Positions 14,930 to 47,100 of a DNA stretch of 64,000 nt are shown piece by piece (position 1 is the stretch's first letter; every line of letters starts with the position of its first letter). The notes below the pieces were generated by a model, which worked only from the letters and a program-made list of their open reading frames with translations, had not been told where the DNA came from and did no database searches. The position numbers and the translations under genes are program-made. Source of the DNA: Tubulanus polymorphus (Eukaryota > Animalia > Nemertea); the NCBI RefSeq assembly GCF_964204645.1, contig NC_134025.1:23788299-23852298 (forward strand), given 5' to 3'.

Positions 14930-16053
14930 CTTTCCCGATTATAGAAATTACATTGCATCTACATTCTTGAAATTTTGGAAAATAAATGCCTTCAAATTCG
15001 TTAGACTTTCCAATCTATCCAGAAACCAATAGGCCTATGTATCCAAAATATTCCATATCATTAATTTCCTAGTTTCCAAACATTGATATAGGTTTTAAAC
15101 TCTGAAATTAATTAGAATATGTGTGTATCTAGATGTGTGTACTGTTAGGGTAGTCCAACACCAAAAATCCCTGTTTATCCATCCATTTCAGAGGTATAAT
15201 TTTTTGTAACCATACATGTACAATCAGTATTGTAACTGTATCCTCATACATTTTGGTGAAATAGGCATTGCATTGAATTTTTTGTAAGCATTTAAGTAAC
15301 ACACGATGAAAATAGTTTGTTAATGCTTTTGTATTGAACATTATGTTCATTTTAGTGAAAGGTGTGGACTATGCATTAAATTTGCATTTTGATATTTTGT
15401 TAATATCAAGGAAATTATTGTATACACTATGTAGCAAAGGATTGTTTATAAAGTTGCATGCCCTGTTCATTAGGCTTATTGGTATGTAAATGAACAGCTC
15501 AAGTAGTTGTCCGAGTATTGCTTTAAGTATGCCTCCAGAAATAAAAATTCCTTCTAAATTGCAAACTATATTTTGTCAAACAACTACAAACTTGTAGAAA
15601 CATCGTGTACATAAAAAAGAATTGATATGCCAAAAAATGAAATTATGAATTGCAGTGAATGCAGATAAAATATTAACATTTTGTAGGCTACTATTCAATA
15701 TTTATTATTTCAAGCAACCGTCCTGAGAAGTCTTTCATGTTAAAGTTTGTATCCTATTTTTAGAATTGACTTTTTAAGGTATTCTCGTTTACGTCTATTT
15801 ATTAAAGAATCGTTATATATTTAAATTCTTGATTTTTACAAAAGAAATTCCAACTGTGATTATTTTGTTTCCTGTGAAGATTTCAACTACTAGTTATTAG
15901 AATAGAATACACCAATATATGCTTTAGGTTAGGCTGTACATTTATTTATTGTATCAGAAATTTTATAGAAATGAAATTAATAAAAAATTGTTATAATCGC
16001 GATTCAAGGGTTTTTATCAGTATTTTTCTGATAAGAGGACAGTTATATACATT

Positions 16054-16474
16054 TTAGCCTGTAGCCGTAGGAGGGAGTTTTATTTTCATGGGTCCTATGC
16101 AAACATAACAGTCTCTATTAGCTAGCTCTGCAGAGAAGTACTTCTCGGCGCATTCCTCTGCTTTCTTCCCAACCAGGAGAATATCGGTATGGAACTCCAT
16201 CTGGTCGCAGTTCAAAGAACAGTTATCACAATTGGACTTTTCAACATGTTTGACGACAATTTTCTCTGCATCGTCATCAGGGATGACAGTTACTTCGTAG
16301 AATGATAAATTGTCATTGCAGCATTCATGGAAATTGTGGCTCGGCGTTGAGTGAGGTGTTCCTATTAATCCGAATTGTTCTCTATTCTCTGTAATTAATC
16401 GTCCTTGGAACCATGGCAATGACGAGTTTTTATCTTCGACAAAGCACAAGTGTGCAATTCCTTCAACCGCAGAC
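16054..16474 (-). CDS. Terminal coding exon of an unidentified Cys-rich protein
   Basis: ~140-codon open frame starting at a TTTTTGCAG acceptor (SAVEGIAHLCFVEDK...CDNC...CYVCIGPMKIKLPPTATG*). Globular-looking composition and - strand AATAAA near 15945. The upstream exon was not resolved. Confidence 0.6.
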
Positions 16475-16916
16475 CTGCAAAAATTATATATTTGATGATA
16501 AAAGATGATTTTACTATAAACAATTTATTCAAAAGTGGTGTTCTGTACCAATTAAGTAATACAACAATGTAAACTCAAATATATTCTCCAGGGCCCAGTT
16601 TCACAAAAGATAACTTTAAATCGATTTAATTTCTTTGTTAATTCAGTTTAGATTAGTTTTCAGTTTATCGATCATGTGTCGATTTCAGATAAATTGTAAA
16701 CTAACGAGTACAGAAACCGATTGCCCGGGTTGTTAAGCTACACTTAATGAGTCAATTGACTCTCAATGTATGTATCGAATATAAACATATTTTGAGGTCA
16801 AAAAGAGATTAACTACATGGTAAGGTTAATGTAATTGGGTTGTTTGTAAGCTGGTGAATTAGACAAGAAAAATAAACAATAGCACATGTCCATAGAGAGG
16901 CGTTGGACCGTAACGT

Positions 16917-16927
16917 GCTGCCATCTT
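16917..16927 (-). promoter_or_regulatory. YY1-like motif (AAGATGGCAGC) in a CpG-containing patch, candidate promoter of the - strand gene
   Basis: Close to the YY1 consensus AANATGGCGGC, ~450 bp upstream of the 16474 exon. Confidence 0.3.
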
Positions 16928-19117
16928 GTCGTGGCGTTAGACTGGTCGCCTGTTCAATTCTGCGCCACCTGCATTCGCAGTCGAGCTCAGACCACTATTC
17001 CAAAATCTTCTATATCCTATAGTAAAAACAAGAAATTCGAGAGGAGGGGTCCCAGTACAGGAATGCCAGTACATCCGAGCCCAATATCTAAGGGAATCCC
17101 CCACCGTGTTTGGTACCCTTACTCCAAGCAAAAAAGTCCAGGGAATCCCTTATTTCATCATCAATCTGTCTCTCAGGATCAATGGATTTCATACATATAA
17201 CCGAGGCTCCCCCTTCCTTCTCCATTCAGATTAGATATTTTTTGAAATTTACATTTTTATAATGGACACTAACGTTTTGTAAAATTTGGTGGTTGTTTAT
17301 TTCATGTATGTTTAGATATTTCAGTCACAGATTTATTTGGAATTTCAACCTGAATTGAGACAATGAATTCTGAGATATTTTCACCATCTGTAGAACTCTG
17401 TTTACAGTGGAAGATCGTTTTAACAATTTATCAGTTATTACAAAACTAGAATTTCATTCCAGATAAGACAATATCAATTATTTCCATACTTGATATAACT
17501 AATTATAACTAACAGATTTTCTGGTGCCCTGAAGTTCGTTGCAACGAAGTTCCGCTGTATAATTTTCTAAATTCAAAGAATGTTTTACAGACTTTTCGAC
17601 ATCAATAATTAACCACCAAGAAATACTTTCTTTTTATTATTTCAGGTGGCTGGAAAGAAAGGCGAGAGTCATTGATGCGAGGGTCAATATCGAACGTACA
17701 TTATTTCACCAAGAAACAAAGATTAGGAACTTGGGATTCACCAGAGAATTTTGACCACATTACAACAGCGAGCGTATGAATTTGTACGAGGCAAATTGAA
17801 AATTACAACTTTCATTGCATTGTGATTAATAAACTCAATATTATTATTATCATTTACTGAATGGTTTTTCTTTTGAGTTTATTGTTCTTCTATCAGAGGA
17901 CCGGCATCAATGATGACATGATTTTTGTAGGCTTAAGCAAAATTTAACACTTAATGCGGAATAAAGTGGCAGGTGGCAGTTTTTCACTTAGTGAATTGCA
18001 TCAATGCCTAATCATGACTTGTCTGACGTATCACAACTAGTATCCTCATGGACAGACTGACCCGCGCATGATTTGATACCGCCATATACTCTTTGACCAA
18101 AATCAAAAATGGGATAAGAGTAATTTTGAACAAGAAACGAAATTCTAATTTGGACTTTCCTAAATTTACATGATGATGTACCATTTAATCCAGTATCAAA
18201 ATTAAAGAAAACAATTTGGTTTTTTTTCAAATTATGAGTGGTAAGCATGAAGTTTTTGGCAAAATTTCAGAGTATCGGTGCTCCAAATAATTAAAAAAGC
18301 CTAATATATCTCCCCTCAATTGAAATAAGGAGTTTTTTTTAATGAAAATCTGTCTATTGACGGGATTCTGTGATTAATGATGATTAATCGTGAATACATG
18401 GTATTAGTGGGTTTTCCCCCAATGACTCAAATAGACCGCTTTCCTCGTGCATGGTGTGGGTCAGTTATTTCGGGGTACATGAACTGTCCGTTACGTAGTG
18501 ACTAATAATCTAATTTCATTAGTAAATGTTTACGCGGATTCTATGATATGAAGACCTGTGTTGGTGTGAATCTTTAACTGAAGTGCTATCGGTCGGTATA
18601 ATTTATAAATTATTCTAGAATTTAAGAAAAAAACAGGCGGCGGCTTATAAATTCGGAAGTAGCTGTTGGGAATCAAGTAATTTATTTCATGGTCTTATTA
18701 AAGTTCCTCCACTATATTGTTCAGCAGACTACTGGCGCGTATTCAACCCGGCGGTGGAACCTTTCATAATGTAAATCCATTCAACAATAGAGACACAATT
18801 GCGGTTTTTCAGAGTTGTTGATATCATTTATACGCGCTATCGTATACGTCGCAGGCTGACCACGGTGTACACAAGCATAGACCATTCACCTCAGCTTACT
18901 CACACTGTGAACATGCTACCGTGGATTCTCCTCCTGGCGATCTTCGCTGCGCTCCCGCTCCTGCTTCCTGAGGAACGACGTCTTTATGTTTTATGTGTTA
19001 CTGTTCGTCTCCGTGCTGTCCTGTACTGTTCCGTGTTAATTAATCCGTTCTATTTTTCAGGATTTAACCCGTTTTATTTTTCAGGGCCGATTTCTCCGTC
19101 GAATTTCAACGTTTGCT

Positions 19118-19796
19118 GGAACAAAACTAATGTCCGAAAGCATCGGCTCTCCTTCGCCGGTCATGTGTCGAGGATGTCAGACAAAGAGTCGGTCAGGAAA
19201 TGGCTGCCCTCTACATGCCCTCATACGGAACACGAAAACCAGGATGACGAGGCCTCACTCTCCCCACGTATCAACAGAGTGTGCTTGGTGACGTCAATGA
19301 CGGGCAAGTCAGTCGGATTGCACGGGTTAAAAGTGGAGTGGTAAAGCTGGACTGTCTACTAGTATTCATTGATTCCTTTTCAGGAATTGCTTCGGACAAA
19401 GATTTAGTCTTGTCTTCCTTTGCGTTCTAGCATTCATTGATTCCTTTTAAGGGATTGCTTCGGACAGGGATTAATTTCCCTGTCTTCCTTTGAGTGTTAG
19501 TATTCATTGATTCCGCGTGGGTTGCTTCGGGCAGGGCTTCTTGAGTGCTAGTGCGGGCAATCCAGTTGCACTGCCCTATTTTTGGCTTGGGCAATTTGAT
19601 TGGTTTGTCAGTTACTGACGTCACCCGGCACACCCTGTCGGTAAATGGTGAAAGTAAGGCGTGGTCATCTTGGTTTTCGCGTTCTGTGTGAGGGCGTGTA
19701 GAGGGCAGTATATTCCTGGCTGGCTCTTTGTCTGGTGTTCTCGGCATGTGACCGGCGACGGAGAGCTGAAAAGCTTTCAGACATTAGTTTTGTTCC
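19118..19796 (+). ncRNA. Candidate long hairpin RNA: inverted repeat of an RTE-like LINE fragment
   Basis: Arms ~19118-19363 and ~19547-19796 align in reverse complement. Arm 1 encodes RKHRLSFAGHVSRM, like the post-RT region of RTE-clade LINEs. Most transitions between arms give G:U pairs on the + strand. Confidence 0.55.
19359..19550. repeat. Three diverged ~68-70 bp tandem units in the hairpin loop
   Basis: (T/C)ATTCATTGATTCC...TTGCTTCGG recurs at 19363, 19431 and 19501. Confidence 0.85.
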
Positions 19797-20334
19797 GTAC
19801 CAGGTTTTCATCGCTCTTCTCTTTTTTTTCATTTCAGGACTCCCAAGATGAAGAAGATGCTGAAGGCGACTACAACGAAGACGATGCCAAAAAAGAACAC
19901 TGAACGCAGCAATATTGAAAGTTAAGTTGATACACATGTAAATTACGATGCGTGATACAGAAAGGATTGTGTAACTACAGAAAATCGTTCTTTTACTCAT
20001 TTCAGGTTAATCCGGAAAGGCCCATCTAAAATCTGCCCACCAAAAGTGCCCACAAAAGACTCCACCTTGAAGTACCACCAAACACCGAAAGACCTGCCGC
20101 AACCGAACCTGGCAGTCTTGACCTCATTCTGCATGGCAACAGGAATACATACATACATAAAGCTAAGTTGATTTTTCATATCTGGGGTAGAATGGATAGG
20201 CGCTGGTCAAGCTCACCATCTCCGCACTACTTTATTGAAGCTCTGTGGCCGGTAGTAAATTGAAATATAGCTAGGCAATGATTGCTTGAATATTTACAAT
20301 ATTAGACGAAATGATTGAGTGAGGTCCCTTAAAT

Positions 20335-21040
20335 ATTCTTTGGTCTGATAGTTAAAATGTAGATTGGTCAGTTATTGATTAAAAGATTTTGTAAGTACGT
20401 ACAATTAAGGTAAATTCAATATCGATCTTATGTGACATTTCTAAATTATTCGAATGTACCGTAGATATTTCAGGCCTCATATGACTATTGTTTAACTGAC
20501 AATCAAGATATAGATTGGATAATTTACTAATTAGCAATCATTCAATATCTTGTAATGTTTGATGAGACATTCTTTTGGTGTAGATATTTCAAGGCCCCAT
20601 ATACATTTAGGCCAGCTTTACTTAAAGATATATCAATTAAACTTTATCATCGGTTGATAGATTTTTCTTTACAAATAATATATTGATAAATTTATAAAGA
20701 TTGAGGCCATACTTTACAGTATATACTGTGTGCTGCCTCACACATAACAGTAATGAATTTCATAAGATAGTGTCTAGGGCTCTATCGAGGTCTGGTGTTA
20801 TATGGGGAAAACTATGGACTACGGGTCTTTATGAAACAGTGATTTGGTCTCAACACTTTGATAAATCCAGAATAAACCAAAGCTTTAATTGATTTAGTTC
20901 ATTCCTGAAACACTGCGTCTTGTTTTGGACAACGCATGATAATTGTTGTTTGACTGATAATTAGCATACAGCCAGGAAAAATTGCTTAGATATTCACAAT
21001 TAAGATGAATTCAATATTTGATGTTGGATCAAAAACTTTT
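20335..21040. repeat. Segment duplicated at ~29360-30100 (direct, diverged)
   Basis: Shared blocks such as GTACAATTAAGGTAAATTCAATATC, CGAATGTACCGTAGATATTTCAGGCCTCATATGAC and ATAGTGTCTAGGGCTCTATCGAG.TCTGGTGT.ATATGGGGAAAACTATGGAC. Confidence 0.9.
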
Positions 21041-21811
21041 TATATCATAAATATTTATTGAAATATAGCTGAAATATATAATATATTTGAGCACATCTAT
21101 AAGTGAATCAGTCTCATTGACTGATTAGTTCTGTATAGCCAACTGCCGCGCTTACGACGACTAGCCATGCTTTTCATTATTGGAAAAATTTACTCAAACC
21201 TAACTAATTCAATTTATATCTAAAAGCCATACTGTGTGTCAAGTGACGGATATTAGATATAGTTTAACTGAAAATTAGAATCTAAGATGAATTACTCATT
21301 AACGTATTACTTAGATCGATTAAGGTTAATTCAATTGTTATGTGAAATTATTTCTAATTCCATGGACATTTAAAATGTAGCTGATACATGTGTATCTGAG
21401 CACATTTAGTTATCTGTATCTAAGTGAACCTATGGTGTCTTCATACAGCTGTATTAGTTTTGATACATATTGCCAAAATCATTTAACGCAGATTTACTTC
21501 CGATCAAATCTGTGCACAAATACATTCCTGGATTTGGAAGGGGGGAATATTTCAATTTCACTGTGTATGTCAGATTGAAAGCCTTATTCTGACAGGATAT
21601 CCTAAACTCAGGTCTTATTCCTCTTGCTAATAGCTCTCTTATACTAACCCCTCTTTCAAATTATTTTCTAGCATCATGACTCGCACCGCACCAGGGAGGT
21701 CCGGTCATAACAAGGTCTTTTGGTCCTTATACACAGTGTACTATATAAGGGAAATAAAGATTATATAGCCATTCGGCCAAGGGAATTTCTAATTTACCAC
21801 TAAAAGTATGC

Positions 21812-23083
21812 TTTTTAGCCCACTTGGGACTTTAGTCCCAGCGGGCTATTGCGTTTACTTTTTGTCCGTCGTCCGTCCGTCCGTTCGTCCGTCCGTAGAC
21901 GGAATCCAGTTATTTTGGGAAGTTTTGAAGACGCTTCCAGGTAATGTCTTGATATTTGGGTTACACATGTATCTACCCTAGACACATCTTCAGCCCAAAA
22001 ACTGGCCCTGTCAGAATCAAGATGGTCGACTGGCAGCCATTGTTGTTCACCAAAATCAGCACTTTTTACACATTTTTGAACTTTTTGAGGGAAATTTTGA
22101 AGACGCTTCGATCAATTACCTTGATCTTTCAGATATATGTGAATCCCCCCAGGGCCCATCAGCATAACAAAAATTGGGTCGGTCGGACTCAAGATGGCCG
22201 TCCTATGACCTTTTTAGTGCCCAAAAATGTTAATTTTGGCCCGAATTCTGAGTCCTGTAGCTTCCTACTGGTTGGCCATTTCTCATTACAATTTGTGATG
22301 GGTATTCTTTGGAAAGGGATGTTTTATACCTGAGACAGGTATTTTTCATCAGCCAATTATGACGCAATTGGCGGCCATCTTGGTGTCACCAGTACTCATT
22401 CGTAAGTTGGAAAAAGTTTTTCCACATTATATTGATACCTAAGCGTATTTTGCTACCACAATGGATTAGAAAGTTGTAGCTCATAACGTGTTCCAAGATT
22501 GTGGTGAGTTTCAAGGTAATTGGATTTCGTATATGGCCACCAGGGGGCGTTGAATAATACAATATCTTAGCATTTCTTTATTATATTCATATCAATGCAT
22601 ATTTTGTAACCACAATCAATTGGAAAGTTGTAGCTCATGACATCATCTATGATTGTTGCGAAGGACATAAGTTTTTCTATATGGTCACCAGGGGGCGTTG
22701 GATAGTAGAATAACTTAGTATTTCCTTATTATATTGGTACCTAGGCATATTTTGTTACCATGATCAATTGCAAAGTTGTAGTTCGTGACATATTCTATGA
22801 TTGTGGTGAGTTTCGAGGTCATTGGGTTTTGAATATGGTCACCAGGGGGCGTTGAATAGTAGAATGACTTAGTATTTCCATATTAGATTGGTAACGAGGC
22901 ATATTTTATTATCACAATCAATTACAAAATCGTAGCTGTTGACATGTTCTATGATTTTGGTGAGTTTCAAGGTCATTGGATTCTGTATATGGTCACCAGG
23001 GGGCGTTGAATATTGAAATTGTTAGATTGTTGAGCATTTGAAACCACTTCCCAAGTGGGCATGGTGTCCCTGGACCCCTAGTT
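21812..23083 (+). mobile_element. Helentron-associated non-autonomous element (HINE/DINE/pearl-like) with internal ~150-bp tandem array
   Basis: Subterminal inverted repeats GCCCACTTGGGA (~21818) / TCCCAAGTGGGC (~23049), 5' GTCC microsatellite (21864-21895), 3' short hairpin followed by CTAGTT, T-rich ends. GG(C/T)CACCAGGGGGCGTTG recurs at ~22536, 22683, 22837 and 22991. Confidence 0.75.
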
Positions 23084-24454
23084 TATCTTAAATTTTTGAT
23101 GAATTCAAATAGTGACGAATTCACCACATCTGAAATTCTACTCATGTAGATTTTCAGGCTTCATATAAATATTGTTCAACTGACAATTAAAATATAGCTA
23201 GTATGATTACTAATTAATGGTTCGCTTAGATACCTAGAATTTAATTAAAATTAATTCAATGTAATGAAACTGTGAATGTAGTGAAACTTATTCAAAATTG
23301 CACAGAGGATGAGACGACTGTATCGTGCAATGTCATCTGCGTCTAACTGGGCCACATGTGTGTGTGGGATCTGTTGAATCAGTTAGGTTTTGGGGGATTC
23401 GGGTTTAGTTAAGCTAGGTATCAAAAGCTCTGATGCAAAATTAGCAGTTCAAATAGTGATTAATTCAAATTCGTACCAGATCTGAAATTCTTCTCGTGTA
23501 GAAATTTCCAGCATCATATAAAATATTGTCCGAGACAATTTCAATTAACTTATTGATTAGGTATCTAATTCAGCATCTTCATATAAGGTAAAAGTGCTCA
23601 AATCTAAACCATAGGGGTCGATAAGACAACTGTATAATTTAATATTGATTGATATATAAAGAATACTGGGTATGTTTTAACTCTGTCTCTTGTGCATGGG
23701 ATTTATTGAATCTTTAAGGCTTTGCAGAATTCTGGATTTGTGGGAATGATTCAAGGTTTTTTAAATCTGTAGAACCATGTTACTTATAGGATCAGTGTGC
23801 ACAATGCTGGCAGCGCACTCATTCTTCAGTTAGTTATATTATCATGATTACAAAATCATTGTATATATTAGGAGCAATATTTAGAATTAATGAAATGGAT
23901 TAGAATACCATTCACTGGGTACAGATGTCGCCATCTGTGGGTAGAAAACATCTTTTAAGTTTATTAACTGATGATGAAGTAAATTTGATAATACGAACAT
24001 GGTTTAGCTGACAATCGAAATGTATATAGGCAAATATTACTAGCAGGTTTGCACTGTATGATGGGCCTGGGTTTCAATAAAAGACACATCAAGAATTTCA
24101 AGAAGATAGAAGAGAAAACAGTTCAAAAACGATTTGATAAGATTGATTATGCATTGCTAAATTTGTTGTAACTCTGGTATTCCTAGAGATGACTATAGAT
24201 GCTTTAGTTGAATTGTTGCTAAACTATAATAATCAACCATTGCTTAGATATTTAGAATATAGATGAATTACTATATGAGTTGAATTTCATAAATATCATT
24301 TAAGACTATTATTAAAATCTACGTATCGATCCATATTGCTGATCTTATATATGAATTGACATGATAATCATGATCAGTGATATTCGAAAGGATTTTCAGT
24401 TCAAAAGGTTCTGCTCTTTTCTTCAGCTTGCCGTTTCAGACTGATTGGAAGATA

Positions 24455-25240
24455 GTTTGAATGAACCGGAATCGAATTTCCCAATTATGTACTTCGATTT
24501 CAGACATACTCGAGAAAAACTACAATAAACTGAAAAATTTGACAAATTTAAACGGTGAAAATGACAAAAAAATTAAAGCTAGACAAAATTCTCCCACCTT
24601 GTAAACTTTCGGACTAGTTACATGAAAAAAGACCAAATATTGTAAAATATAGTTATTTCCAAAATCTCGATGTATTAAATTAGGCAGAAAAAAAATAGAT
24701 AAAATTATTAAACCTTGTAAACTTTCGGACTAGTTACATGAAAACAAGACCAAATATTGTGAAATATAATAATTTCCAAAATCTTGTTGTATTAAATTAG
24801 GCAGAAAAAAAGTTAACCCCAATCAGTCACTTAATATGTGCTTCGACTATTTAAACGGTGAAAACGACCAAAAAAATTGAAGTTAGACAAAATTATTAAA
24901 CATTGTAAACTTTCGGACTAGTTACATTAAAAAGAGACCAAATATTGTAAAATTATCTTCAACCTCGTAATATAGTTATTTCCAAAATCAGAATTAGGCA
25001 GAATAAAAGATTGTTTGAATGAACCGGAACCGAATTACCAATTATGTTCTTGGACTTTAAAAAAAAGATCTGTAAAAACGACCGCCGATCACGCAACTAT
25101 ATCTGTACTTCGATTTCCGATTTTGAAAAAAAACCGCCGTATCGCTCCCGGCAGGTGTGGTAGGTTTGTAAGGGACACCAACTCGAAAAGTCAAACGAGA
25201 GCTTGAGGTCAACAAGTCATCAAAAATCTGCCAATTAGAG
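24455..25240. repeat. Local tandem duplications plus a dispersed repeat fragment
   Basis: TTGTAAACTTTCGGACTAGTTACAT occurs three times (~24599, 24715, 24903). GTTTGAATGAACCGGAA occurs twice. 25105-25240 resembles 61297-61410 (CCCGG.AGGTGTGGT.GGTTTG.AAGGGACACCAA). Confidence 0.8.
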
Positions 25241-27029
25241 AAGAGTGCACAGAAACCAACCGACTTAGGAGATCCTCGTCGATGATGAAACCAGCAACTA
25301 TGAGAAAGAGCGACCAGCTTAAAATCAACTACTCATCTGAAATCTATGGATTTGAACAACCCACAGAAGAATCAAACTCATTAGATGGAATTACCGGTAC
25401 GGTATATAGAAATTTCAGGCCTCATATGAATATCATTTGATAAGTGATTATCATCGAAATCTATTTACCTGTCCACATGGCTGATCTTAGAACTTTTATC
25501 TTTACTAGTCTTATGCCTCGGAGTAATAAATTTTTCAAATGATTACTCCAAGCTTAAACATTGATGAACTAGTCCTACTACTGCAATTATTTATTGGGGT
25601 TTAAATCGGCAATTGACGTCAATGAACCTAATTCTGATTTTGGAAATAACTATATTAACTAAGTGAAAAACACGGTGGCTTGTAATTTGAAATGACATGT
25701 AAGTTATGATAAATCTGTCTAAAATGTTTTGCTTTCTTCACTTTGTTTCAGTTAAACTACATCCCGCAAATAATGGCCTGAAGAAGACACAAGTAGACAA
25801 ATACCCATTGACCAATTTGCTGATGAAAACTGCAGAAGCCCAGATGAGAAGTTTAGGAGCCAGCGACGGATCAATCACTCAACGATGGAATCTTCTACAA
25901 TCGGTGGTTGATTTCTATAAAACATTTTATCAGGAGCAGCAGAGATGATAGTGTATCTTATAAACACTGATTCGCGCAGCAAAGATAATGGATTATCTCA
26001 TAAAATCTGATTCAGGATAAACACCGAAGCAGCAAAGACAATGGTTTATCTCATGAACACCGAGATCTAGCAGCGGCAAAGACCTCTGTAGTAAAGTATT
26101 GATTTTTTTTACTAACATCACCCTTTTTCAGACCATTCTGATAGGTAACATAGTTTGAAAAATTTACCTGATTGCGTGGAATGGAGTATGAAAATAGTTG
26201 TTGAGTCGAATATTGAAAATAGTTAGATAATTAGGTTCCGTTGGCCTGAGAAAGGAACTCTACGTTTGAATATTTCAATATAGAGATAACTATTTTATAA
26301 TGAGTTTGTAAAAAGATGTGTCATGTGTTTTGCAATGTGACAGAAATATCCTTCTTAGAGTCTAATAAAAGCTAAGCTCCATTAATTCACGATATTGGTC
26401 CTGGATCTTTGGTTGATAGATAAGTCGAGTTAGGTTAGTCACTAGGAGTAAATGGTCGCGTCGAGCGCCTAGTTTTGAGTTGTAGGTCTGTTGAGTTAAC
26501 GCCTAAACTGAGATATAGTTTCATTGTGCTTACCATAGTTAAACAGAGTCAACACAGTGGCTTTGCCCTGTAGATATCACATGGTTAGGAAACATAGAAC
26601 ATAACGTTCTATGTACAAATAATAAGTATTTGCAGAATTGTAGATGTACTAATTTGATGGCATTGATATTTTCGAAGGCCCGTGTAACCAATTTGAGAAA
26701 TGAATCATATATGTCGATTTTCACATGGAGTTTTAACTTTGAGCCTCCATCAATCTGTTCGATGCTACGTATTTGAAAGCAAAAGCTTTATCTAAAAGGA
26801 GACCATTATTTACATTTGAGAGGTAAAGCTAAAGTTATAGCTAGGACTAATTTTGAACGTTTTAACATTGTTTATAGCTGTTTGAACTTCTTTTATAATA
26901 GTGGGTAAATCCATATCACGAGATGGCTCTCGTGAATAATCACTTAGCTTCAAATCGGGTGTATAATGATTATTAAGAAGCGACAGTGAATTAGTAGTGC
27001 TTTTTAAAAATGGGCCCAGAACTTTACTG

Positions 27030-28905
27030 TGAAAAATGCCTGCAGTTGTAAATAGAGGAGTATAAATAATACATGATACAAAATACATGTGCATGAATAA
27101 ATAAGAAATACCAATAAATAAAAAATTATAAATAATAGATAGTAAATAATACAAAATAAAAGTTCATAAATAAATGAATAATATTTAAAAAAAATTAATA
27201 TAATAATAAGCAACAATACAAACAAACAACAAATTAATACTCTATTTACATGAAAAGGCATTTTTTCAAATATTTATCAATAAGGTTTTTTCATTTATCG
27301 AACAACCTTCCCTAAGTATAGCGAAAACCGGAGATCTTTTCTGTTGTTGTTTTTAGCGTTCTATCAACTCAGTTACTGTAATAAACAAAACAAATAACTA
27401 TAAACCTTAACTAAATCGAATACACTTAAAAAAATAACTGATATGATAGAATGCTTTGAATAACTGTGATGAAAGATCGACCCGTCCTTAGAACTAGCTG
27501 CGCTCAATCACTGCTGTGACTGTTTATTGTTATACTGGGGTAGACTTACGGGGCAGACTTACTATCTAAAATCATGTACATACATTTTACTTTTTAGAAA
27601 GAATCTAAAACAGCTATAAACTTAAGTTATTGATGTTATTGATTAGTTACCGATTGTATAATTATGTTGATGTTTTTAAAACTGGAAGAAAAAACGTCAG
27701 AATAGTTAGTATTTAATGCCAAGGTGCTTGAAAATCTTTGTCGGGGCAAAGTTAGCAAAATTCTAGTTTTCAAGTGAAAGTAATGTTTATGAAAAAGAAA
27801 TTAAGAATGATAAATTGATACTCCAAGATTTCTGGAGTGAATCAGTATGTTTCATCTCTAGTTTTAACGCTTTATGTTAGAGACTGTTGTAGAGATTGTA
27901 ATACAGTTCACGTGTTTGTAAATTAGGAACTTACATGATGATTCCTCGATTAAGATATTATTGTTGTGTGAATAAAACATTGTACATTTTCATCATTCAT
28001 GTTGAAACTTTTCAGTTGTTAAGTTTTATAGCAACTATTTCACTTTGGTGCTTATCAGTCGTTCATAAAATGCTGATTTAATTAAGGCCCTGTCGAAAAT
28101 AGAGGATAACTTGTGGATGCAGTGCTAATTGTTCAATCGTCCTAGCTTTGTTTTGATTATCGGTTTAACCGCGTCTGTGTGGGGCCTGTAATGTCTGGAC
28201 AAGAAGAATTAGTTGAGCTTTTTCTTGATAATTAAATGTCATTTGAAAAGTTGACACGGTAGATTCATATTTCATGAAATATAACAAAGTGTCGGTTATA
28301 TTGACCTCATGAATTGTCAAATTCATAATCTTAGACTTTCAGACTAGTCCAATTTTCTATGTTTTATGGATAAAAATTTATAATTCTTTGTGTATTTATG
28401 TTATTTTGCTATTGATGCAAATTGTATAAAATCAGTAGTAGTGGAAATGTATTGTATATTAAAACTTCGAAATACTTTACATGTTACTTTTGTGGTTTAG
28501 AGTTATTACAATTTCATTCATAGTAATAGAAATAAAATAACTATTAAAATTTGAGAAAATAAGCTAAAAGTTAATATGTTATGTGAAAATAAAATGATGT
28601 AAAAATGTAAATCAGATTTATTACTTAATCCTACGCTTTCCAGAGTATTTGGCCAGGTTTATCTCTGGTTTTAGTGCGGGGGCCATGGACTCTTACAGTT
28701 AGAGTCCATGGTTGGGCCATAGACTTTTCTGTTTTAGAGTCTATGTTAGGACCATGAGCGTATAAACACTCATTTATAGTTTATACGCCTATGGTGGTTG
28801 GACGTTATTTTTGAAAGTCCACGTGTTTGAGGAGCTTACATTATAATTACTCGAGCACTCTTGGCATTTTGTATAATTGTTGTATGAGAATAAATATGAT
28901 TGATT
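27030..28905. repeat. Copy 1 of a ~1.8-kb structured duplicated segment (copy 2 at ~30185-31962)
   Basis: Collinear shared blocks: A-rich tract, AATAAACAAAACAAATAAC.ATAAACCTTAACTAAATC, TCTTAGAC.TTCAGACTAGTCC, CTTTCCAGAGTATTTGGCCAGGTTTATCTCTGGTTTTAGTGCGGGG, GTATGAGAATAAATATGATTG. Confidence 0.9.
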
Positions 28906-29359
28906 TTGAAATTTGTTAAGTTTAATATAGCAACTCTTGGATTGAGGCCTCAATCGATTTAGGAATTATGAAACTGGGTCCTGGGTATTGTTGTTGACCA
29001 ATCAGTTTCACCCAGGATCCCAATGGTATTTTTTCCCCAGGGGCTTGTATATTGTTATTTTATATACATTATACATGTAGGCACTGGATTAACAGATTAT
29101 CGTTTTTACACTACCTACAACTCTGATACGAGCCCCTGTGTTTAATTCTTGCAATCTACTTCATCCAATACATAATCCCACCAACTGGTCCGCTGACAAG
29201 CTTTTACACGTTCGGAAGACATGCTTATGTGATTATATCAACGCTAAAGAACCAATACGACTTTGTGATTTACACTAGGCCCGTTCACAGTTGTTGACGC
29301 TATGACCAGCCAGAAGTACAGCGGGCCTAACTACGATTCAAAAATCAATTTTAGGCCTA

Positions 29360-30100
29360 CTTTGGCTGATAATTAAAATGAAAATTTGTCAGTTATTAAT
29401 TCAGATTTTTTAAGTATGTACAATTAAGGTAAATTCAATATCTTATGTGACATTTGAAATTTTTCGAATGTACCGTAGATATTTCAGGCCTCATATGACA
29501 ATTGTTTAACTGACAATCAAGATATAGAGATGGGACAATTTACTAATTAATTAACCAATCGCTTAGATATTAGCAATCATTCAATATCTTATAATGTTTG
29601 ACAAGAAATTCTTCTGGTGTAGATATTTTAGGGCCCCGTATACATTTAGGCTGGCTTTACTTGTAAAATTAAACTTCGTCGGTTAATAGATTTTTTTACA
29701 AATAGTATATTGATACATTTATAAACATTCGGGCACTTTACAGTATATATTATGTGCTGCTTTACCCATTGCATTAATCAATTTCTCCGCGGAAACATGT
29801 ATAAAATAGTGTCTAGGGCTCTATCGAGATCTGGTGTAATATGGGGAAAACTATGGACAGTGGATCTTTTAGAAACTATGATTACGTCTCAGCATTTTGA
29901 CAAATCTAGTATGAAACAAAGCTTAAATTGATTCAAATCATTCCCCAGAGCCATACTATGCGCCTTGATTTGCGCTATGATTATTGATTAACTGACAATT
30001 ATCATATATATAGCTAGGACAAATTGCTCATTATCAAATGGCTTAGGTATCCGCAATTAAGATTCCGCAATCAATATTTCATGTAAGATCAAAAACTATA
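29360..30100. repeat. Second copy of the 20335-21040 segment
   Basis: Direct collinear similarity to 20335-21040. Confidence 0.9.
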
Positions 30101-30184
30101 TGTAATACAGCTCCATAATATAAATGTCGTTAAACTGACAATTTAAATATAGCTGATATGATGTATAGCTGATATAGCTGATAA

Positions 30185-31962
30185 TTCCTGATGATGTAGA
30201 TTGTAATAAATAGTACAAAATACATAGAACATAATTAAGAAAAATACATTAAAAAAACAATAAATAAAAAAATACATAACAAAAAATTAAATTATAAGTA
30301 ATAAAAATAAACAAAACCAACAAACAATTAGTAAATACTCTATATAGGGCCTTCATCATCAGGCATGTTTTCTAATCAACTTAATAATTATTAAAGGTTC
30401 TTCTTTCATAGAACAACCTTCTCCGTGTTTCCCAACCTCTTGAGATCCTTTCTGTTGTTGTTTTAAGCATTCTATCGGCTCAGTAATAAACAAAACAAAT
30501 AACCATAAACCTTAACTAAATCAAACACACTAAAAAATATCTGTTTCGATAGAATGCTTCAAATAACTGATGAAAGATCATGCTTCCATTTACCTATATA
30601 TCACACCCTATCACTGCTGTAACTGTTAATTGTTTTAGGGATAATATCTGGGAGATACATTTTACTCTTTTTCAGAAAGAATGTTAAACAGCTATAAACG
30701 TGATTAGTTATCGATAGTAAAATTATTGTCATGTTTTCCCTGAAATAACGTTGTATTAAATGAGCGAACTGATAATGTTTGAAAACCTCAGGTAAAGTTA
30801 GAAAAACTCTAGTTATCTTGTAAAACTCCAGTTATCTTGGAAAATAATTTTAATGGAAATAAAAATAAAGATTGATTAGCTAATCTCAAGCTTTCCAGAG
30901 TTAATCTTTAGGTTTTATCTCTGATTTTAATGCTTTTCTGTTGAACTGTTTTTTTTCAAATACAGTTCACCCATTGGTTAATGAAGAACTGATAATTCCT
31001 CGAATACAAAGCAAAGTTTGCAAAATTTCAGTTTTCTTGTAAAAATAATGTTAATGAAATGAAATTAGAGATTGATTATTTGAATGAATTTGTGGTTTTA
31101 TGTCCAGCTTTAATGTTTATATGCTGGAGATATGTTTTGCAGTTTTTTGTAAAAACAGAAATCTTTCTTACATTGTCATTTGCTCTGTATAGTTGATATG
31201 ATAGAATGCTTCATATTTCATGAAATAATCAAGTGTCACTTATGCCCGGTGACATCATGAAATGTCAAATTAATAGTCTTAGACGTTCAGACTAGTCCCA
31301 ATTGTCGGTGTTTTATGGATCAAAGTTTACAATTCTTTGTGTAATTTTGTTATTTTCCTATTGATTCAAATTGTATGAATCAGTTGCAGTGGAAATTTGA
31401 ATAAAAACCTTGAAATACCTTGCATGATATGTGATATTAAAAGCTAGTAATTTTATTATTGAATAATCTAAGTCATTATTATAAGGCTAAAAATGATACC
31501 TTGTTTTTCCCGATCGGTCGGGTCATTTCATAAATCAATGAAATTTGTAATCAGTTAATTTCTATCTGCCGGGTCTGTTATGGTTAGCTTAATCATGATT
31601 TTAAAGTAATACCTTGGTAGATAGGTGGCCGGCCGGGTCAAATTTTAAAGAGTAAAAATGTAAATCAGATTGATTCATTAAATCTTACGCTTTCCAGAGT
31701 ATTTGGCCAGGTTTATCTCTGGTTTTAGTGCGGGGAGCCATGGACTCGAGAGTCCATGGTTGTGGGCCATAGACGTTTCTGTTATAGAGTCTATGGTTGG
31801 ACCATGGATGTATAAACTCTAGTTTATAGTGTATACGTCCATGGTTGGACTGTTTTTGAAATACAGACCACGTGTTTTAGGAGCTTACGTTATAATTCCT
31901 CGAGCACAAACCTGGCATTTTGTATAATTGTTGTACACTGTATGAGAATAAATATGATTGAA
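30185..31962. repeat. Copy 2 of the structured duplicated segment
   Basis: Collinear with 27030-28905; stems retained with substitutions. Confidence 0.9.
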
Positions 31963-32550
31963 ATTCTTTATCTGGTTAGCTAATCTGAACTTTGTTAGTT
32001 CACCAGTCAGTGGTTTTTGTTATCTTGCAATCCACCTCTTTTTTTAACCCAATATTCCCACCAATATTGTGCGGAGACGAGGATGTCCGGAAAACATGAT
32101 AATCGGATATTGGCAATACAGCTTACCAATTCAACCCGGACACACTAACACTTGTTGACCGGTTAGAAGCGAGTGTTGAAGAGTAATTACGAAATTAGCA
32201 ATCTTTTTGATTGTTATTATAGCCATCAGGGGCGGATCCAGACCGTATTGTCCAATACATTGTTTGTACGGTCTAAAATTTAAGTGCCCTTCGGCAATAT
32301 TTTGTGACGGCATATATTTCACCACCCGCTAATTTGATATTTCCACTGATGATCGGTTTGATTTTTATATACAGAAGCAGAGTCCTGAATAGTTAACTTT
32401 GCCTTTAAAAGTGGCACCCAGTATCCTTCTTTTGGTGTTAACATTACATGATTAATTACATGAGATTTGTGTTTCTCTTGTAAAAATCATTGTTTTTATT
32501 TTCTTCATGCTTTCGGTAAATGTAGCTGATGACCTCCTGATCGTTTCTAA

Positions 32551-32767
32551 GGTTCGAACCCAGTAATTACTGATACTGGTTCAGAGTGGTCCTGATGCTG
32601 AATAGAGGATGCACAAGGGTGTCCCGGGTTCGAACACAGTAATTACTGATCCTGGTTCAGAGTGGTACTGATGCTGAATGGAGGATGTATAGGGTTCAAA
32701 CCCAGTAACTACTGATACTGATTCAGACTTGTCCTGATGCTGAATAAAGGATGTACAGGGTGTCCCG
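32551..32767 (+). repeat. Three tandem ~66-76 bp units beginning with a Pol III B-box-like GGTTCGAACCC
   Basis: GGTTC(G/A)AAC.CAGTAA.TACTGAT.CTG.TTCAGA...CTGATGCTGAAT at 32551, 32627 and 32693. Confidence 0.85.
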
Positions 32768-33099
32768 ACCGTACAGTCCTGCCGCTATGCTCATCGTTAG
32801 CGGGATTTTCATACACTAACTAAAGTCAACTCTGGCAATCGACGTGCTGTCCAGATCGTATACACAGGGACGCGAGTATTATTTCTAGAAAGCGATGAAT
32901 AATCTCGGAGCCAACCGTTTCTCGATAAACAAAATACTAACCACACCATGAAACGGTATTTTGAATTTACCCCTTCTGAAATGAACGTACAAATTCATAT
33001 GGAATAGAAGAATACTAAATCAAATTTTAGAATCTTTAATATTTGGTTCAGATTCTATTAGAAAGTGTGATTTGTGAAATGGTCGTTCCGTTTCGTGTT

Positions 33100-33223
33100 T
33101 ACGCGTATATCATTTACCGGTGTGGGTTGAGTCAACATGGCGGATTCTGATTTATATCGTTGACAAGGAAAACAACAAAGTATTCGTAATTAAGTCTAAT
33201 TAATCTAACCGAGTTTGCTTTTG
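33100..33223 (+). promoter_or_regulatory. Candidate promoter / non-coding first exon of the neurabin gene
   Basis: CpG-containing patch with YY1-like CAACATGGCGG (33133) followed by a TG|GTAAGT donor at 33224. Linkage to neurabin is inferred. Confidence 0.4.
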
Positions 33224-34151
33224 GTAAGTGATTATTACAGGTTTTGTTGACGCAATGTCTAGATTTACCGTATAACAATCTTCAGGAATTGTTTAATCGA
33301 TAGGGCCTATCATTATAAAGATGTTAGATAGGCCTTACTAGATAGGACATCTTTGACTTTTAGTTTAGACCTTTTAGTCCTGAAAAATTCCATTTTTAGT
33401 CCTAAAAAATTCTTCTACACCAGTTTCTTCTGACTTCCTCCTTATTCCTTACTTACATTCATCAGTTTTGATACGGATTTTTTTCTTGGATTCTAATGCG
33501 AGATTTACAGTCATCTCAGACCCGAGTCAAGCTCGTACCCCCTTTCAAAAATGGCCTATCTATGCTCAATTTTTATTTATCCTGTTTTTAAATTTCCTGA
33601 CATTCCATATAGCAAATAAGATTTTGAGAAACATCAGATTCTCTTCACAGTTTTCTTCTTGATTCATGGGTTTTCACTTAACCGATAGGCCCTATAATTA
33701 TATCAGACAGTAACTTGTCTAGTATAGGCCTAAAAGTATGGGAACCCAAAATTTATAGGCCTATAGCATCTTGCTGGTGTTCACATTATCAAAGATAGTA
33801 AATACTGTAAAAACATTATAAGGAAAAGCGTTTTTTTCACAGAAAGCATAGGTATGTCTGATATCATCATAAAAGGAAGAAGATTAATATTTTTTGCTAA
33901 TGTGTCAAACATAAAATATATGTTACAGCCTTGATTCAAAAATTGAAAACGGGGAAATAGGACAGGTGAAAAGCTTGTCAAAAGGCAGGGAAAAGTTATC
34001 CACAATAGGGTACGAGTTGAACCCAATTCAACATGGCGGCAAGCAGTCAGGATTCTTCTGCATCATCAGTTTTTCTTCTGCATCATCAGTTTAGATGAAC
34101 TTGAAACAAGTGGTTAGTCTGAAATAAGGTTTAAGTTCAATTGATAGACCT

Positions 34152-34619
34152 TAAAGCTAAGCATACACCGACAAAGCGACTGGAGACAACTAGTTGCTTG
34201 TGAGCGAGTACCCGCTCACATCGAAAATCTAATGAAAACCTGCAACTGCGTGGCTCATGCCGGTCGCTAGGTCTATAGCGCACACATCGACAGCAACTGA
34301 GATGTGTAATCTAGCAAATATTCTCAGGGCATCTCGAATCGCGTGACAAATTGCTTTGTTTTAGTCAGTTGCAACCATGTGTTATTGATTATGGAGCGCC
34401 CACATCGACGAATATGACAGCAACTGAGTACAACTAGTTGCTCAAAAGTAGAACATGGGCAACTGGCTGGAACTGGAGACAGATGGACGCTAACCAGTAA
34501 GCTAGCTCACAACGACACGTTCGAGCAACTGATTGTATCCAACCAGTTGCTCTCATGCGCCGAAAACTGCCCGGCAACTAGTTGTCTCCAATCGCAGTGT
34601 CGTTGTAGGCTAGGCTTTA
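34152..34619. mobile_element. MITE with ~45-bp imperfect terminal inverted repeats
   Basis: TAAAGCTAAGCATACACCGAC...TGGAGACAACTAGTTGC versus GCAACTAGTTGTCTCCA...GTCGTTGTAGGCTAGGCTTTA; no ORF. Confidence 0.75.
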
Positions 34620-44100: not shown

Positions 44101-47100
44101 CACATATAAACTATAAAGATTAATCCGACCTGATTTTTGGATTGGAATACCAAAAAACTGAGGTCGAAATTAATCGAAAATGAACTAATTTCGATCGAGT
44201 AGGTCTGATATCTTAGTGGCGCCATCTGACGGGACCGGTACCCCATTCTAGTTCCAGTGGACACAGAAGCCGTTGTTGTGATTGTTTGACTATGTGATGA
44301 TAGACGACCGCGCCTGCTGGTGTATGGGCGTGATGTCACATTTATGGCGCGATGATTACGAAAAATGGGATTGAGTTTCTCGGACCAATCGTCGTGTTGG
44401 CAGAAAGTAAAGTACTCGAAATTCACGCGAGTTTTGAAGCGTACGGAGTGCCTCGCTGAAGAAGTTGATAATAGTAACATGGGTCAATCGACGAGTGCTG
44501 AGAATAAAGTTCCGGCGGCGGAATCTTCTGATGAAGTTAAAGCGGATGGCGACGGTAAAAATAGGCAAATAACCGGTGCAAGGTCTGCCGCCGAGTCCGA
44601 GACTGTTTTACAGTTAGATACGCATACCGGGTTGAGCGAAACTGACGTCGATGTAAACGTGAATTCCGGCGAACCGATACGTAAAACTCAGATTAATGAA
44701 ATTGATAATACTCACCATGGAACTACTAACAACAGCGCTCGAGAAAACGCCGAGGAGCGAATAGACAGTTTACACGAACACGATGCATCTAATGAGATAT
44801 CGGCGATCGCGACGAACACGTCCGCGGGTCGACGCGACGATGAAGATCCGAAGACCGTCGGCGATTTGTCTGTTTCGAATTCGCGGACGAATCGCGCGAT
44901 CGATCTCGGTGCCGACCAAAAAGAAGTGGCACCACCTGCGGCGAATGATCAAATCGATCCCAACGCAAACGCGAATGATGAAGAAACGTCCGTCGATGAT
45001 GAAAACTTGCGCAACGTTCGCGTTGTAAACGAGACAAACAGGCCGGCGCTGATTGAATTCGCGCCCGTCATTGCTGTCGTCGATACCGTACACGACAACG
45101 GGTTACAACACGTCGGCGACGATATTTCCAAACAGCCGATCATCGTCGATATTCCTTTGAATTTGGAGGTCGTGGACGGCGTCGAAATCGAATCAGAAAA
45201 TCTGTCACGAGATCAGCGCGATGATTACGATGACGACGGCGGCATTCTCGATAAACGCGATCGTATTTTGCAGCCGCTTCAAACGGAGAGGAAAGCCGTC
45301 GATGTAGAACGGTATACGGTGGTCATCGGTGCGTTAGATGGGCTTTTCGCTAAAATGAAAACGGTGTCAAAACATTGGTAAGGAGGAAGAAGACCACTTT
45401 CGTTATTCTTATTATGTCTGTAATTGATACTACTAGTCTTACTTGCCAACTGTCCCTGCTGGTGTTTGTTTGATGCTATTGACGATCTATTGCTGTCCCT
45501 GAAACAATTTCTACTGTCCCTCTAGAAAATTGTTTTAATTCATTTTTCCTTAACGTGTCCCTGAAAATTTACTTTTTTGTCCCCGATGTGGTAGGTTGGT
45601 AGGTCTGTAATTTAGAATTCACATGGGACAGAAATGAACCGAGGCTTATCTGAAGTCTAGACCTAGTTAGTAAGAAACCCCTAACCATTATATGAACGTG
45701 GATAATAACAAAAACATAATGAAAGATGAAGCCAGCAAGCATTAAACTTCATTGGAGTTTACCAAAATGTTTGGTAAATAAATGTTTGGTGTTTCGTATG
45801 GTTTTTAGGCTTTACACTTATGGATGTACATTTTAGATAGGTATTTATGATTGTTGCCCATCTGTAACAATCGACAAGGATGAATGAAGCTTCCACCTCA
45901 TCTCATAAGATGATTGAACGAAGAGGCAAATTATTCTACATCGATACCCAATATAGCCATAATCAGTGCCTAATTGACTAATGGCAGTATATGGCTCTCG
46001 GTCGTTCTGTAGACACCAGTCTTATCCCACCATTAGGCATTAAATAATAATGCAAGGCTGATTAACAATCTAGCAATTGTCTCTTTCTAAAAATAAGGAT
46101 ACGAAGGACTTGGAAATATTGCTATAGATACTCCAATAGTATCGTCATAGCATTCTGAGCCATCCCTTTCGCTAGTAGTGTCTGGTTCCGGATGGGCTTG
46201 ATCTTCGCATTGGATGTCCATCATCTATCGTTACGCAGGCTCGAAATGAATTTATTTTTCGTGCGATGAAAAAACTCTTTTTTAGATTAAGTAGATCGCT
46301 AATCAGTCGGCCAAGTGAACCGTGAAGTGTGCGTCCTTGAAATAACAGTCGTTCGCGGTTAAAGAATAGCTTCAATTTACCGTTTAAATTATTCATATGC
46401 GGTAATTCTCCGACGCTTGGCGGCTTATACAAACAATCCGTTGAACGAAACAATTTTTGTATGCTATTCGATCGAGCTCAGGTGCTAGTTCAGTAACGCC
46501 TTCATTAACTTCCGTTAGCGCTACGTTTTTTTTCTTTTTTAGGCGGCGCAAATTTTTTTGCTCATTAGCCGCGCGCGTATATGCAACTTACTTATTACGC
46601 TCATTCATAAATTGCTTTTCATCATATTCGTAATAACCTTGAATTCTTCTAGCTCGATATAATAACGAGAGCATTCCGTTTATACGTGGTAAATCACGGT
46701 CTCGCGCTTCAGACGAAGTTTGCATTCGTCTATCCCTACGGCTTGCGGCGTCCGATGACTTCACGTCCCACTGCGGCTTATACACTATAATAGTAGTCGT
46801 GAGTATTAGAGCGATCGCCGAAGTTGTGGACCGGGTTCGACGGATTCGGGTGATCGCGTTTCAAACGGATTTTGGTGAAACAAACAATGAGATATATCTC
46901 GTAATACGTCGATAATGTATGTACAGTAGGGATCAGGAAATAATGACGGTACGTCAGCGACGGTGTCGTCGTCGTCGTTGTGGATAGAGCAGACGAACCC
47001 GGAGAGAACCACCGGCGATAAAAGATTATACTCATAGGCTTATAGCCGGGCAACATGGGATCGTCCCACTCATGGCAAATACAGGATACTGCATATGGAT

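What the first reader, a model, noticed from the sequence alone, without database searches (positions are those of the whole stretch)
26860..30700. Duplicated multibranch RNA-like domain with compensatory base changes and a looped-out A-rich tract
Seen in copy 1: a perfect 14-bp long-range stem GTTTATAGCTGTTT (26870) / AAACAGCTATAAAC (27608) encloses TCACGAGA/TCTCGTGA, a stem AAAAATGCCT+TGTAAATAGAG (27032-27057) / CTCTATTTACA+AGGCATTTTT (27240-27265) closing a ~180-nt G-poor A-rich loop, and AGCGTTCTATCA (27355) / TGATAGAATGCT (27444). In copy 2 the A-rich loop is closed by a different perfect stem, CCTGATGATG (30187) / CATCATCAGG (30354), and the inner stem becomes AAGCATTCTATCG (30465) / CGATAGAATGCTT (30547), an A-U to G-C double change. 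Inference: structure rather than sequence has been conserved between paralogous copies, pointing to an undescribed functional RNA domain that displays single-stranded A-rich loops. I do not recognise it as any known RNA family.
Basis: partly seen in the sequence, partly recalled or inferred. Interest (0 to 1): 0.75.

Follow-up and report, generated by a model that had tools for sequence, protein, structure and literature searches.

The report
Folded A-rich loops in worm repeat
In a ribbon worm's genome, a roughly 15,000-base stretch with no recognisable protein gene, present in an estimated 45 or more copies, carries two versions of a segment predicted to fold into stems that hold open adenine-rich loops; variation among the copies keeps the stems paired, so the fold is likely a working RNA signal of a new, likely mobile, element.

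Summary
The stems are real and at the stated coordinates. The + strand folds far better than shuffles (z -5.1 and -3.7). The four A-rich, G-poor loops are the only such tracts in 64 kb apart from one AT microsatellite. The window is from the ribbon worm Tubulanus polymorphus. Of the 40 best-supported family variants (166 not shown), none breaks a main helix; they keep or add pairs and make loop A richer in A. Stem B and its loop are ~90% identical between units against 62-69% for linkers. Each unit ends in a second folded domain with a poly(A) signal. There is no Rfam, NUMT, LTR, hammerhead or Pfam match. Transcription is untested: no RNA holder was listed. Template-switch repair could explain part of the covariation. 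Best reading: a cis-acting RNA fold of an unclassified non-autonomous element. The scan had not found this before.

The parts
17240..32500 (+). Approximate extent of the multi-copy host repeat (~15 kb, no recognisable protein gene; ends known only to a few hundred bases; smaller repeats nested inside)
   Evidence: X1 summed contig depth ~40 at 14500-16491 and 31.5 at 33092-33755, against 1228 or more in every bin from 16492 to 33091; single-copy-depth contigs end at 16966 and restart at 32825; no Pfam family at curated cut-off in 107 open frames of >=42 aa.
17646..20170 (+). Cluster of five strong + strand splice acceptors (17645, 19060, 19084, 19837, 20005): predicted spliced 5' part of a Pol II transcript
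   Evidence: pattern scan; the 43-aa frame after 17645 has no homologue; splicing not shown
26870..27621 (+). Unit 1 domain I, closed by the outer stem 26870-26883/27608-27621 (14 bp) plus 26888-26892/27599-27603
   Evidence: pair probability >=0.8
26916..26935 (+). 8-bp hairpin, unit 1 only
27031..27266 (+). Stem A (10-11 bp + 5x5 loop + 11 bp) closing the 182-nt A-rich loop A (27058-27239); loop variable in the family
   Evidence: read depth falls from 200-275 upstream to 40-66 in the loop, a 130-nt deletion 27074>27205 lies inside the loop, and a 397-nt deletion 26896>27294 removes the whole arm
27333..27478 (+). Stem B (7-8 + 7 + 12 + 7 bp) closing the 59-nt A/C-rich loop B (27376-27434); best-conserved block
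   Evidence: depth 389-448 over most of it
28610..28903 (+). Unit 1 domain III: three short tandem hairpins (28681-28790) within a closing stem that pairs the AAUAAA at 28889; UGUA motifs upstream; homology between units ends ~10 nt after the signal
   Evidence: z -6.25
29360..30180 (+). Array of degenerate ~150-bp repeats (AACTGACAAT core) directly upstream of unit 2; related copies from 20317 to 25438; possible promoter or enhancer array (inferred)
30187..30363 (+). Unit 2 stem A (10 bp perfect) closing a 157-nt A-rich loop
30443..30579 (+). Unit 2 stem B with 57-nt A-rich loop (0% G); A-U to G-C double change against unit 1
30686..30699 (+). Unit 2 3' arm of the outer stem; its 5' arm is missing in this copy
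31661..31961 (+). Unit 2 domain III with three hairpins and AAUAAA at 31947, less fully paired than in unit 1
   Evidence: z -6.05

Best explanation
The domain is likely a cis-acting RNA fold in the predicted + strand transcript of a ~15-kb repeat with no recognisable protein gene and an estimated 45 or more copies in Tubulanus polymorphus, which is likely a non-autonomous mobile element copied through RNA. Shown: the stems, the A-rich loops, the multi-copy state, pair-keeping variation, conservation of stem B and loop B, and a poly(A) signal at each unit's end. Inferred: an RNA polymerase II transcript folds so that stems A and B hold open two tracts that, being nearly free of G, cannot pair. 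These would act as internal loading sites for A-tract-binding proteins (poly(A)-binding protein, or the reverse-transcriptase or capsid proteins of an unidentified autonomous partner). Domain III would set which of the two poly(A) sites is used by hiding the upstream AAUAAA in a stem. Selection would act only on copies that replicate, so the family majority stays well paired while an inserted copy such as this one drifts.
For: Multi-copy: X1 depth ~40 in flanks against >=1228 inside; raw reads X8 give depth 233-276 over unit-1-specific bins, i.e. 43-51 copies at 5.4x single-copy depth (1934 Mb read, 358 Mb genome from PMC8468679). Copies differ: 105 of 1941 reads are >=99% alike. Of 40 listed variants, 5 fall on main-helix pairs and all 5 keep the pair; 4 more add a pair; 0 break one, against ~6 expected. 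The 2 that break predicted pairs lie in small hairpins inside loop A, and 7 of 9 loop-A variants change towards A. Among the 11 variants at 12-56% share, 5 touch stem B pairs and none breaks one. At 27354, 27376 and the bulge at 27031 most reads are paired where this copy is not (72-84%). Non-Watson-Crick pairs in the helices are mostly G.U on + (my hand tally 7 G.U: 1 A.C, p=0.035). Deletions remove loop A interior or the whole arm and leave the other stems. Stem B 88-91%, loop B 91%, domain III 90% identical between units against 62-69% for linkers (p~5e-5, 4e-5, 1e-17). Five strong acceptors on +. UGUA + AAUAAA ends both units. The repeat sits between single-copy genes.
Against: No transcript is shown. 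No terminal repeats, target duplication, hammerhead or coding remnant identifies a mobility class. The partner proteins are conjecture. The variant test is weaker than its nominal p=0.0016: only 40 of 206 places were shown; 27349, 27352 and 27353 probably travel together; part of 27366-27368 is unit-2 reads; and changes that broke a pair in this copy count as gains. This copy's own lineage does carry about three helix-weakening changes. An unbiased scan of G.T against A.C mismatches was noisy (10:3 and 5:3, against 13:14 and 9:17 in controls). No read or contig spans the whole 15 kb, so its unity is inferred from even depth and local joints. Five acceptor-like matches also occur on the - strand, scattered.
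Confidence: 0.42

Rival explanations
1. DNA-level origin: the stems are old inverted duplications kept perfect by replication template switching, or single-stranded DNA folds of a Helitron-like or other DNA element; no RNA function.
For: About 43% of reads carry three linked changes on one arm (27349, 27352, 27353) that, with the majority states at 27354 and 27358, make stem B a perfect 21-bp inverted repeat. This is the pattern template switching gives (PMC8794818, passages read). DNA folding of + also beats shuffles (z -2.38; - strand -1.60). The host is a repeat. Perfect inverted repeats alone are only modestly in excess.
Against: It does not explain the loops' unique A-rich, G-free make-up and the family's drift towards A, the 91% conservation of unpaired loop B, the G.U lean on one strand, or the poly(A) signals at both unit ends. 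Relative to unit 1, the unit-2 stem A differs on both arms. The same paper shows template switching also maintains functional RNA stems.
Confidence: 0.23
2. A host multi-copy gene family: each copy makes a spliced, polyadenylated long non-coding RNA (or an mRNA for a tiny protein with a 9-12 kb 3' UTR) whose folded domains serve the worm; copies spread by segmental duplication.
For: Splice acceptors at the 5' end, poly(A) signals at unit ends, conserved islands. No transposon termini found.
Against: This copy departs from the family majority at 29 of the 40 listed places, some weakening helices, and unit 2 lacks its outer 5' arm; that fits a decaying insertion better than a gene under selection. 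It has taken a 1.27-kb HINE-like insertion absent from other copies. It sits alone between single-copy genes.
Confidence: 0.2
3. Stem B is a long-loop primary microRNA: a ~13/11-nt lower stem, a 21-bp duplex giving a 23-nt 3' product with the same positions 2-12 in both units, amplified by the repeat.
For: Geometry read from the folds. A CNNC motif follows the stem base in both units and in two read variants. 7-8 listed variants lie on the 5' arm and none on the 3' arm. An earlier unreviewed note reports amplified miRNA arrays in this genome.
Against: Known giant miRNA hairpins have paired extensions, and unpairing them blocked processing of mir-989 (PMC12553114, sections 11 and 14); loop B is unpaired. 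The loop is as conserved as the arms. No Rfam miRNA matches. The arm asymmetry rests on about four independent events.
Confidence: 0.1
4. Nuclear copy of a mitochondrial control region or other organellar DNA.
For: AT-rich stems and A-tracts; depth ~50x single copy; ~15-16 kb length.
Against: No tRNA, no table-5 frame over 189 aa, no Pfam or Rfam organellar match. Copies are mostly 90-99% alike rather than near-identical. Spliceosomal acceptors are present. The mitochondrial genome itself could not be searched.
Confidence: 0.02

Closest known systems
Non-autonomous LTR elements: LARDs (>4 kb) and TRIMs such as Echinococcus ta-TRIM (PMC4558846, PMC6431247; passages read)
   Same: Multi-copy, no coding capacity, internal region expected to carry a structure-defined packaging signal, poly(A) site in a repeated unit
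   Different: No similarity between the two ends of the 15-kb repeat; at 15 kb longer than the ~10 kb such elements rarely exceed; the direct repeats are internal and only 62-90% alike
Giant invertebrate microRNA hairpins (mir-989, mir-12, mir-375; PMC12553114, parts 1-2 and sections 11, 14 read)
   Same: ~35-bp stem with a long region between the arms
   Different: Their extensions are base-paired and divergent; here the loops are unpaired, A-rich and (loop B) conserved; no known seed family found
Penelope-like elements and Terminons (PMC6431247, passages read)
   Same: Large size, partial tandem repeats, possible retained introns, structured RNA in terminal repeats
   Different: No hammerhead core with a stem II (4 candidates, 0-1 bp), no RT or endonuclease frame
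Ngaro/PAT split direct repeats A1...B1-A2-B2 (definition recalled; listing only)
   Same: The order 20338-21044 ... 27113-28903, 29360-30104, 30205-31961 looks like A1...B1-A2-B2
   Different: The pairs are 66-86% alike, not near-identical, and no gag, RT or tyrosine recombinase frame is present
Retroviral poly(A) hairpin and A-tract recruitment of PABP or L1 ORF2p by SINE RNAs (recalled; one search gave reviews, listing only)
   Same: AAUAAA sequestered in a stem in the upstream repeat; A-rich single-stranded tracts as protein docks
   Different: Here the A-tracts are internal loops of 57-182 nt closed by long stems; no binding is shown

Membership tests
Any Rfam 15 family | Covariance-model match at gathering score | tested here: not met
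   0 hits in the window; only sub-threshold chance hits at E 0.1-9
LARD / TRIM (non-autonomous LTR) | Similar long terminal repeats at both ends | tested here: not met
   No direct or inverted similarity above shuffles between 16940-17800 and 31950-32860; ends are only approximately known
LARD / TRIM (non-autonomous LTR) | Primer-binding site, polypurine tract, 4-5 bp target duplication | not testable with these tools
   Exact ends unknown; no genome held
LARD / TRIM (non-autonomous LTR) | Multi-copy and without coding capacity | tested here: met
Canonical or giant microRNA | ~33-35 bp stem with ~10-bp basal part | tested here: met
   Stem B
Canonical or giant microRNA | Short loop, or a base-paired extension when long | tested here: not met
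   57-59 nt unpaired loop with 0-3% G against PMC12553114 sections 11, 14
Canonical or giant microRNA | 22-nt duplex reads with 2-nt overhangs | not testable with these tools
   No RNA holder listed
Penelope-like / Terminon | Hammerhead ribozyme motif | tested here: not met
   Rfam
Penelope-like / Terminon | RT or GIY-YIG frame | tested here: not met
   0 of 107 frames reach a curated Pfam cut-off
Ngaro/PAT YR retrotransposon | Near-identical split direct repeats around gag, RT, YR | tested here: not met
   Order fits; identity 66-86%; no frames
Helitron / Helentron | Terminal motifs and 3' hairpin at the ends of the 15-kb repeat | tested here: inconclusive
   Ends are overlaid by small high-copy repeats; no terminal pair found
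NUMT | Mitochondrial genes, tRNAs or rRNAs alongside | tested here: not met
NUMT | Identity with the mitochondrial control region | not testable with these tools
   Mitochondrial genome not available

The most novel reading that the evidence does not exclude
Each 2-kb unit is a new kind of animal structured RNA: a polyadenylated scaffold whose long stems present interchangeable internal poly(A)-like loops as protein docks and gate its own 3' end, and it is the replicating core of a giant protein-free retroelement of a class not yet described in animals.
Probability: 0.2. Interest if true: 0.75.

Novelty: new variant of a known kind. Interest (0 to 1): 0.47.

Why it matters
How protein-free elements are recognised by a helper's enzymes without shared sequence is an open question; structure-only signals are assumed but hard to find (PMC4558846, passages). 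A family of some 45 or more diverged copies in one chromosome-scale genome gives enough natural variation for a proper covariation test of such a signal. If the loops bind poly(A)-binding or retroelement proteins, this is a new RNA architecture in animals. If the stems are kept by template switching alone, it is a clear warning that covariation inside repeats can mimic RNA selection.

Tried and rejected
No whole genome is held, so other copies could not be fetched or aligned. No RNA holder listed; this is no evidence on expression. Run X10 (RNA is a guess) covered only the HINE-like insert; not counted as evidence. Rfam: nothing real. Exact-pattern scans: metagenomes 0 hits and 2 hits that share only a 25-nt low-complexity stretch; viral contigs 10 hits to the gapped stem-B pattern with ordinary loops (29-35% A) and no model match, and 0 hits; GTDB 0 hits. 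A covariance model from the two units finds no third copy in the window or the 12 loci. Pfam on 18 and on 107 frames: nothing at cut-off; 2 weak hits at E 0.002-0.007 were dropped as chance. The 43-aa candidate exon has no homologue. Strand-neutral mismatch tally was too noisy to decide. Hammerhead, tRNA, mitochondrial-code frames and terminal repeats were all negative. Telomerase template, C/D kink-turn and ENE were considered by eye from recalled motifs and not seen; not formally tested. Paper searches for this element: searches found no description; most subscription papers and Repbase are not covered and no supplements were read (Repbase or the supplements of PMC10886601 could hold a related nemertean element). 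Scan look-ups by place, sequence and words found nothing similar.
Full report
Observation. Folded as RNA, 26860-27630 gives -163 kcal/mol on + (z -5.14, 0 of 20 shuffles) and z -3.02 on -; 30130-30710 gives z -3.70 on + (0 of 100) and -0.62 on -. As DNA, unit 1 gives z -2.38 (+) and -1.60 (-). The four loops are 58-61% A and 0-7% G, and no other tract in 64 kb is like them except an AT microsatellite. Perfect inverted repeats counted alone are only modestly in excess: 12 of >=10 bp against 6.5 expected, reached by 10 of 200 resamples. Corrections: stem A has a 5x5 internal loop; the 'different' stem of unit 2 is the same helix re-paired; unit 2 in this window lacks the 5' arm of the outer stem.

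Context. The protein at 38833 is 100% identical over the 200 residues searched to a Tubulanus polymorphus record. Its PDZ and SAM domains and N-terminus suggest neurabin (name recalled). No genome is held. The duplication is larger than the finding: 27113-28903 matches 30205-31961, and 20338-21044 matches 29360-30104. Laying public runs on 14500-34400 showed depth near 40 in the flanks and 1228 or more in every bin from 16492 to 33091 (run X1; the tool warns that summed contig depth is no copy number). Raw reads give a better figure: 1934 Mb over a 358-Mb genome (PMC8468679, passages) is 5.4x; depth 233-276 over unit-1-specific bins means 43-51 copies, and 388-447 over stem B, where both unit types map, 72-83. 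A 313-Mb genome would lower these by about 13%. The repeat has no recognisable gene: none of 107 open frames of >=42 aa reaches a Pfam cut-off (frames wholly inside the HINE-like insert were left out), and there is no tRNA, mitochondrial-code gene or Rfam family. No listed piece spans all 15 kb, so its unity is inferred.

Family variation. One search listed the 40 best-supported of 206 variable places in 26830-27660. Scored one at a time against helices with pair probability >=0.8: 9 fall on paired sites. Five are in main helices and all five keep the pair (27240, 27349, 27352, 27358, 27366). Four lie in small hairpins inside loop A; two of these break, so the family majority leaves that loop more open. 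Four more add a pair (27353, 27354, 27368, 27376), and 84% of reads carry one more A after 27031, which closes a bulge. About 6 breaking changes were expected (nominal p=0.0016). That p is too good: 166 places were not shown, three changes are probably one linked event, some are unit-2 reads, and a pair broken in this copy shows up as a gain. Read with direction, 29 of 40 places have a majority state unlike this copy, and about three of those are helix-weakening changes in this copy's lineage; among the 11 mid-frequency places none breaks a helix. Seven of 9 loop-A variants go towards A. Loop A is variable (depth 40-66; a 130-nt internal deletion; a 397-nt deletion of the whole arm in 7 reads and one X5 contig), while loop B keeps full depth. 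Some 50 reads carry 26850-26893, the outer 5' arm, between other flanks; these may be intact unit-2 domains (inferred).

Between units. Stem B arms are 88 and 91% identical, loop B 91%, domain III 90%, against 62-69% for linkers, domain II and loop A (p 4e-5, 5e-5, 1e-17). So sequence as well as structure is conserved in stem B; gene conversion is not excluded. RNAalifold on the two units gives one two-sided change among 28 pairs in the stem-B block and one among 82 in domain III; two sequences cannot give significance. Domain III (z -6.25, -6.05) holds three short tandem hairpins and ends in UGUA motifs and AAUAAA (28889, 31947); similarity between units stops about 10 nt later. In unit 1 the AAUAAA is fully paired, in unit 2 the pairing has a central mismatch. 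Five strong acceptors cluster on + at 17645-20005; five matches on - are scattered.

Mechanism. I commit to a cis-acting RNA fold in the transcript of a non-autonomous mobile element (0.42). Shown: fold potential, loop composition, copy number, pair-keeping variation, conserved islands, poly(A) motifs. Inferred: transcription, RNA-based copying, protein loading on the A-rich loops, gating of the upstream poly(A) site, selection in replicating masters and drift in inserted copies. Rivals: DNA-level upkeep by template switching or an ssDNA fold (0.23), which fits the ~43% subfamily with a perfect 21-bp stem B (PMC8794818, passages) but not the loops; a host lncRNA or long 3' UTR family (0.20); a long-loop microRNA (0.10), whose geometry fits but whose known giant examples need paired extensions (PMC12553114, parts 1-2, sections 11 and 14); NUMT (0.02); the remainder unallocated.

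Comparison. It works like the structure-defined internal signals proposed for LARDs and TRIMs (PMC4558846, PMC6431247, passages) but fails the LTR test. It has no hammerhead. Its repeat order resembles Ngaro split direct repeats (recalled) but the repeats are too diverged. It is not filed in any family. Paper searches and scan look-ups found no description; Repbase and most subscription papers were not searchable. Pattern and model searches found no relative outside the species.

Verdict. The thing is a domain of an unclassified multi-copy repeat, with expression and function untested. Interest 0.47; new variant of a known kind.

Noticed in passing
window 21815-23082: HINE/Helentron-like insert: GTCC microsatellite, ~4 copies of a 154-bp repeat each with a CTCF-like motif (motif name recalled), depth ~12,000x single copy, absent from other copies of the host repeat (joint 21814>23082); layout matches Cg_HINE (PMC7492417, passages).
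   Followed up: partly
window 28610-28903 and 31661-31961: Domain III: three tandem hairpins with CCAT...ATGG ends, a 50-nt block identical between units, and a stem that hides the upstream AAUAAA; folds as strongly as the finding's domain.
   Followed up: partly
window 20317-30224: At least 10 degenerate ~150-bp repeats on + and one inverted copy at 28134-28199; role unknown.
   Followed up: partly
window 16054-16477 (-): Single-copy exon of an unnamed ~145-aa protein family: 49 relatives at E<=0.001, no Pfam family in it or in 8 relatives scanned.
   Followed up: partly
window 32521-32813: High-copy element with three 66-76 bp repeats holding a tRNA B-box-like motif and TG...CA ends; may be a Helenus-like repeat (PMC10886601, passages); not tested.
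   Followed up: no
window 19118-19321 and 19591-19796: Inverted pair, 78% alike, whose frames resemble the end of a LINE protein (resemblance recalled; no Pfam hit).
   Followed up: no
window 16960 and 33130-33223: Likely start of the minus-strand gene and a + strand first exon with a strong donor at 33223; the repeat appears to sit between two divergent promoters (inferred).
   Followed up: no
window 24968-24998 / 25627-25657: Perfect 31-bp inverted repeat 628 nt apart, tied to 117-bp tandem repeats at 24538-24933.
   Followed up: no
window 55353-55606: 254-bp palindrome-like element (about 80% complementary) in a neurabin intron.
   Followed up: no
window 44365-45381: 338-aa acidic open frame with no Pfam match, lying between annotated neurabin exons and not part of isoform P0004.
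   Followed up: no
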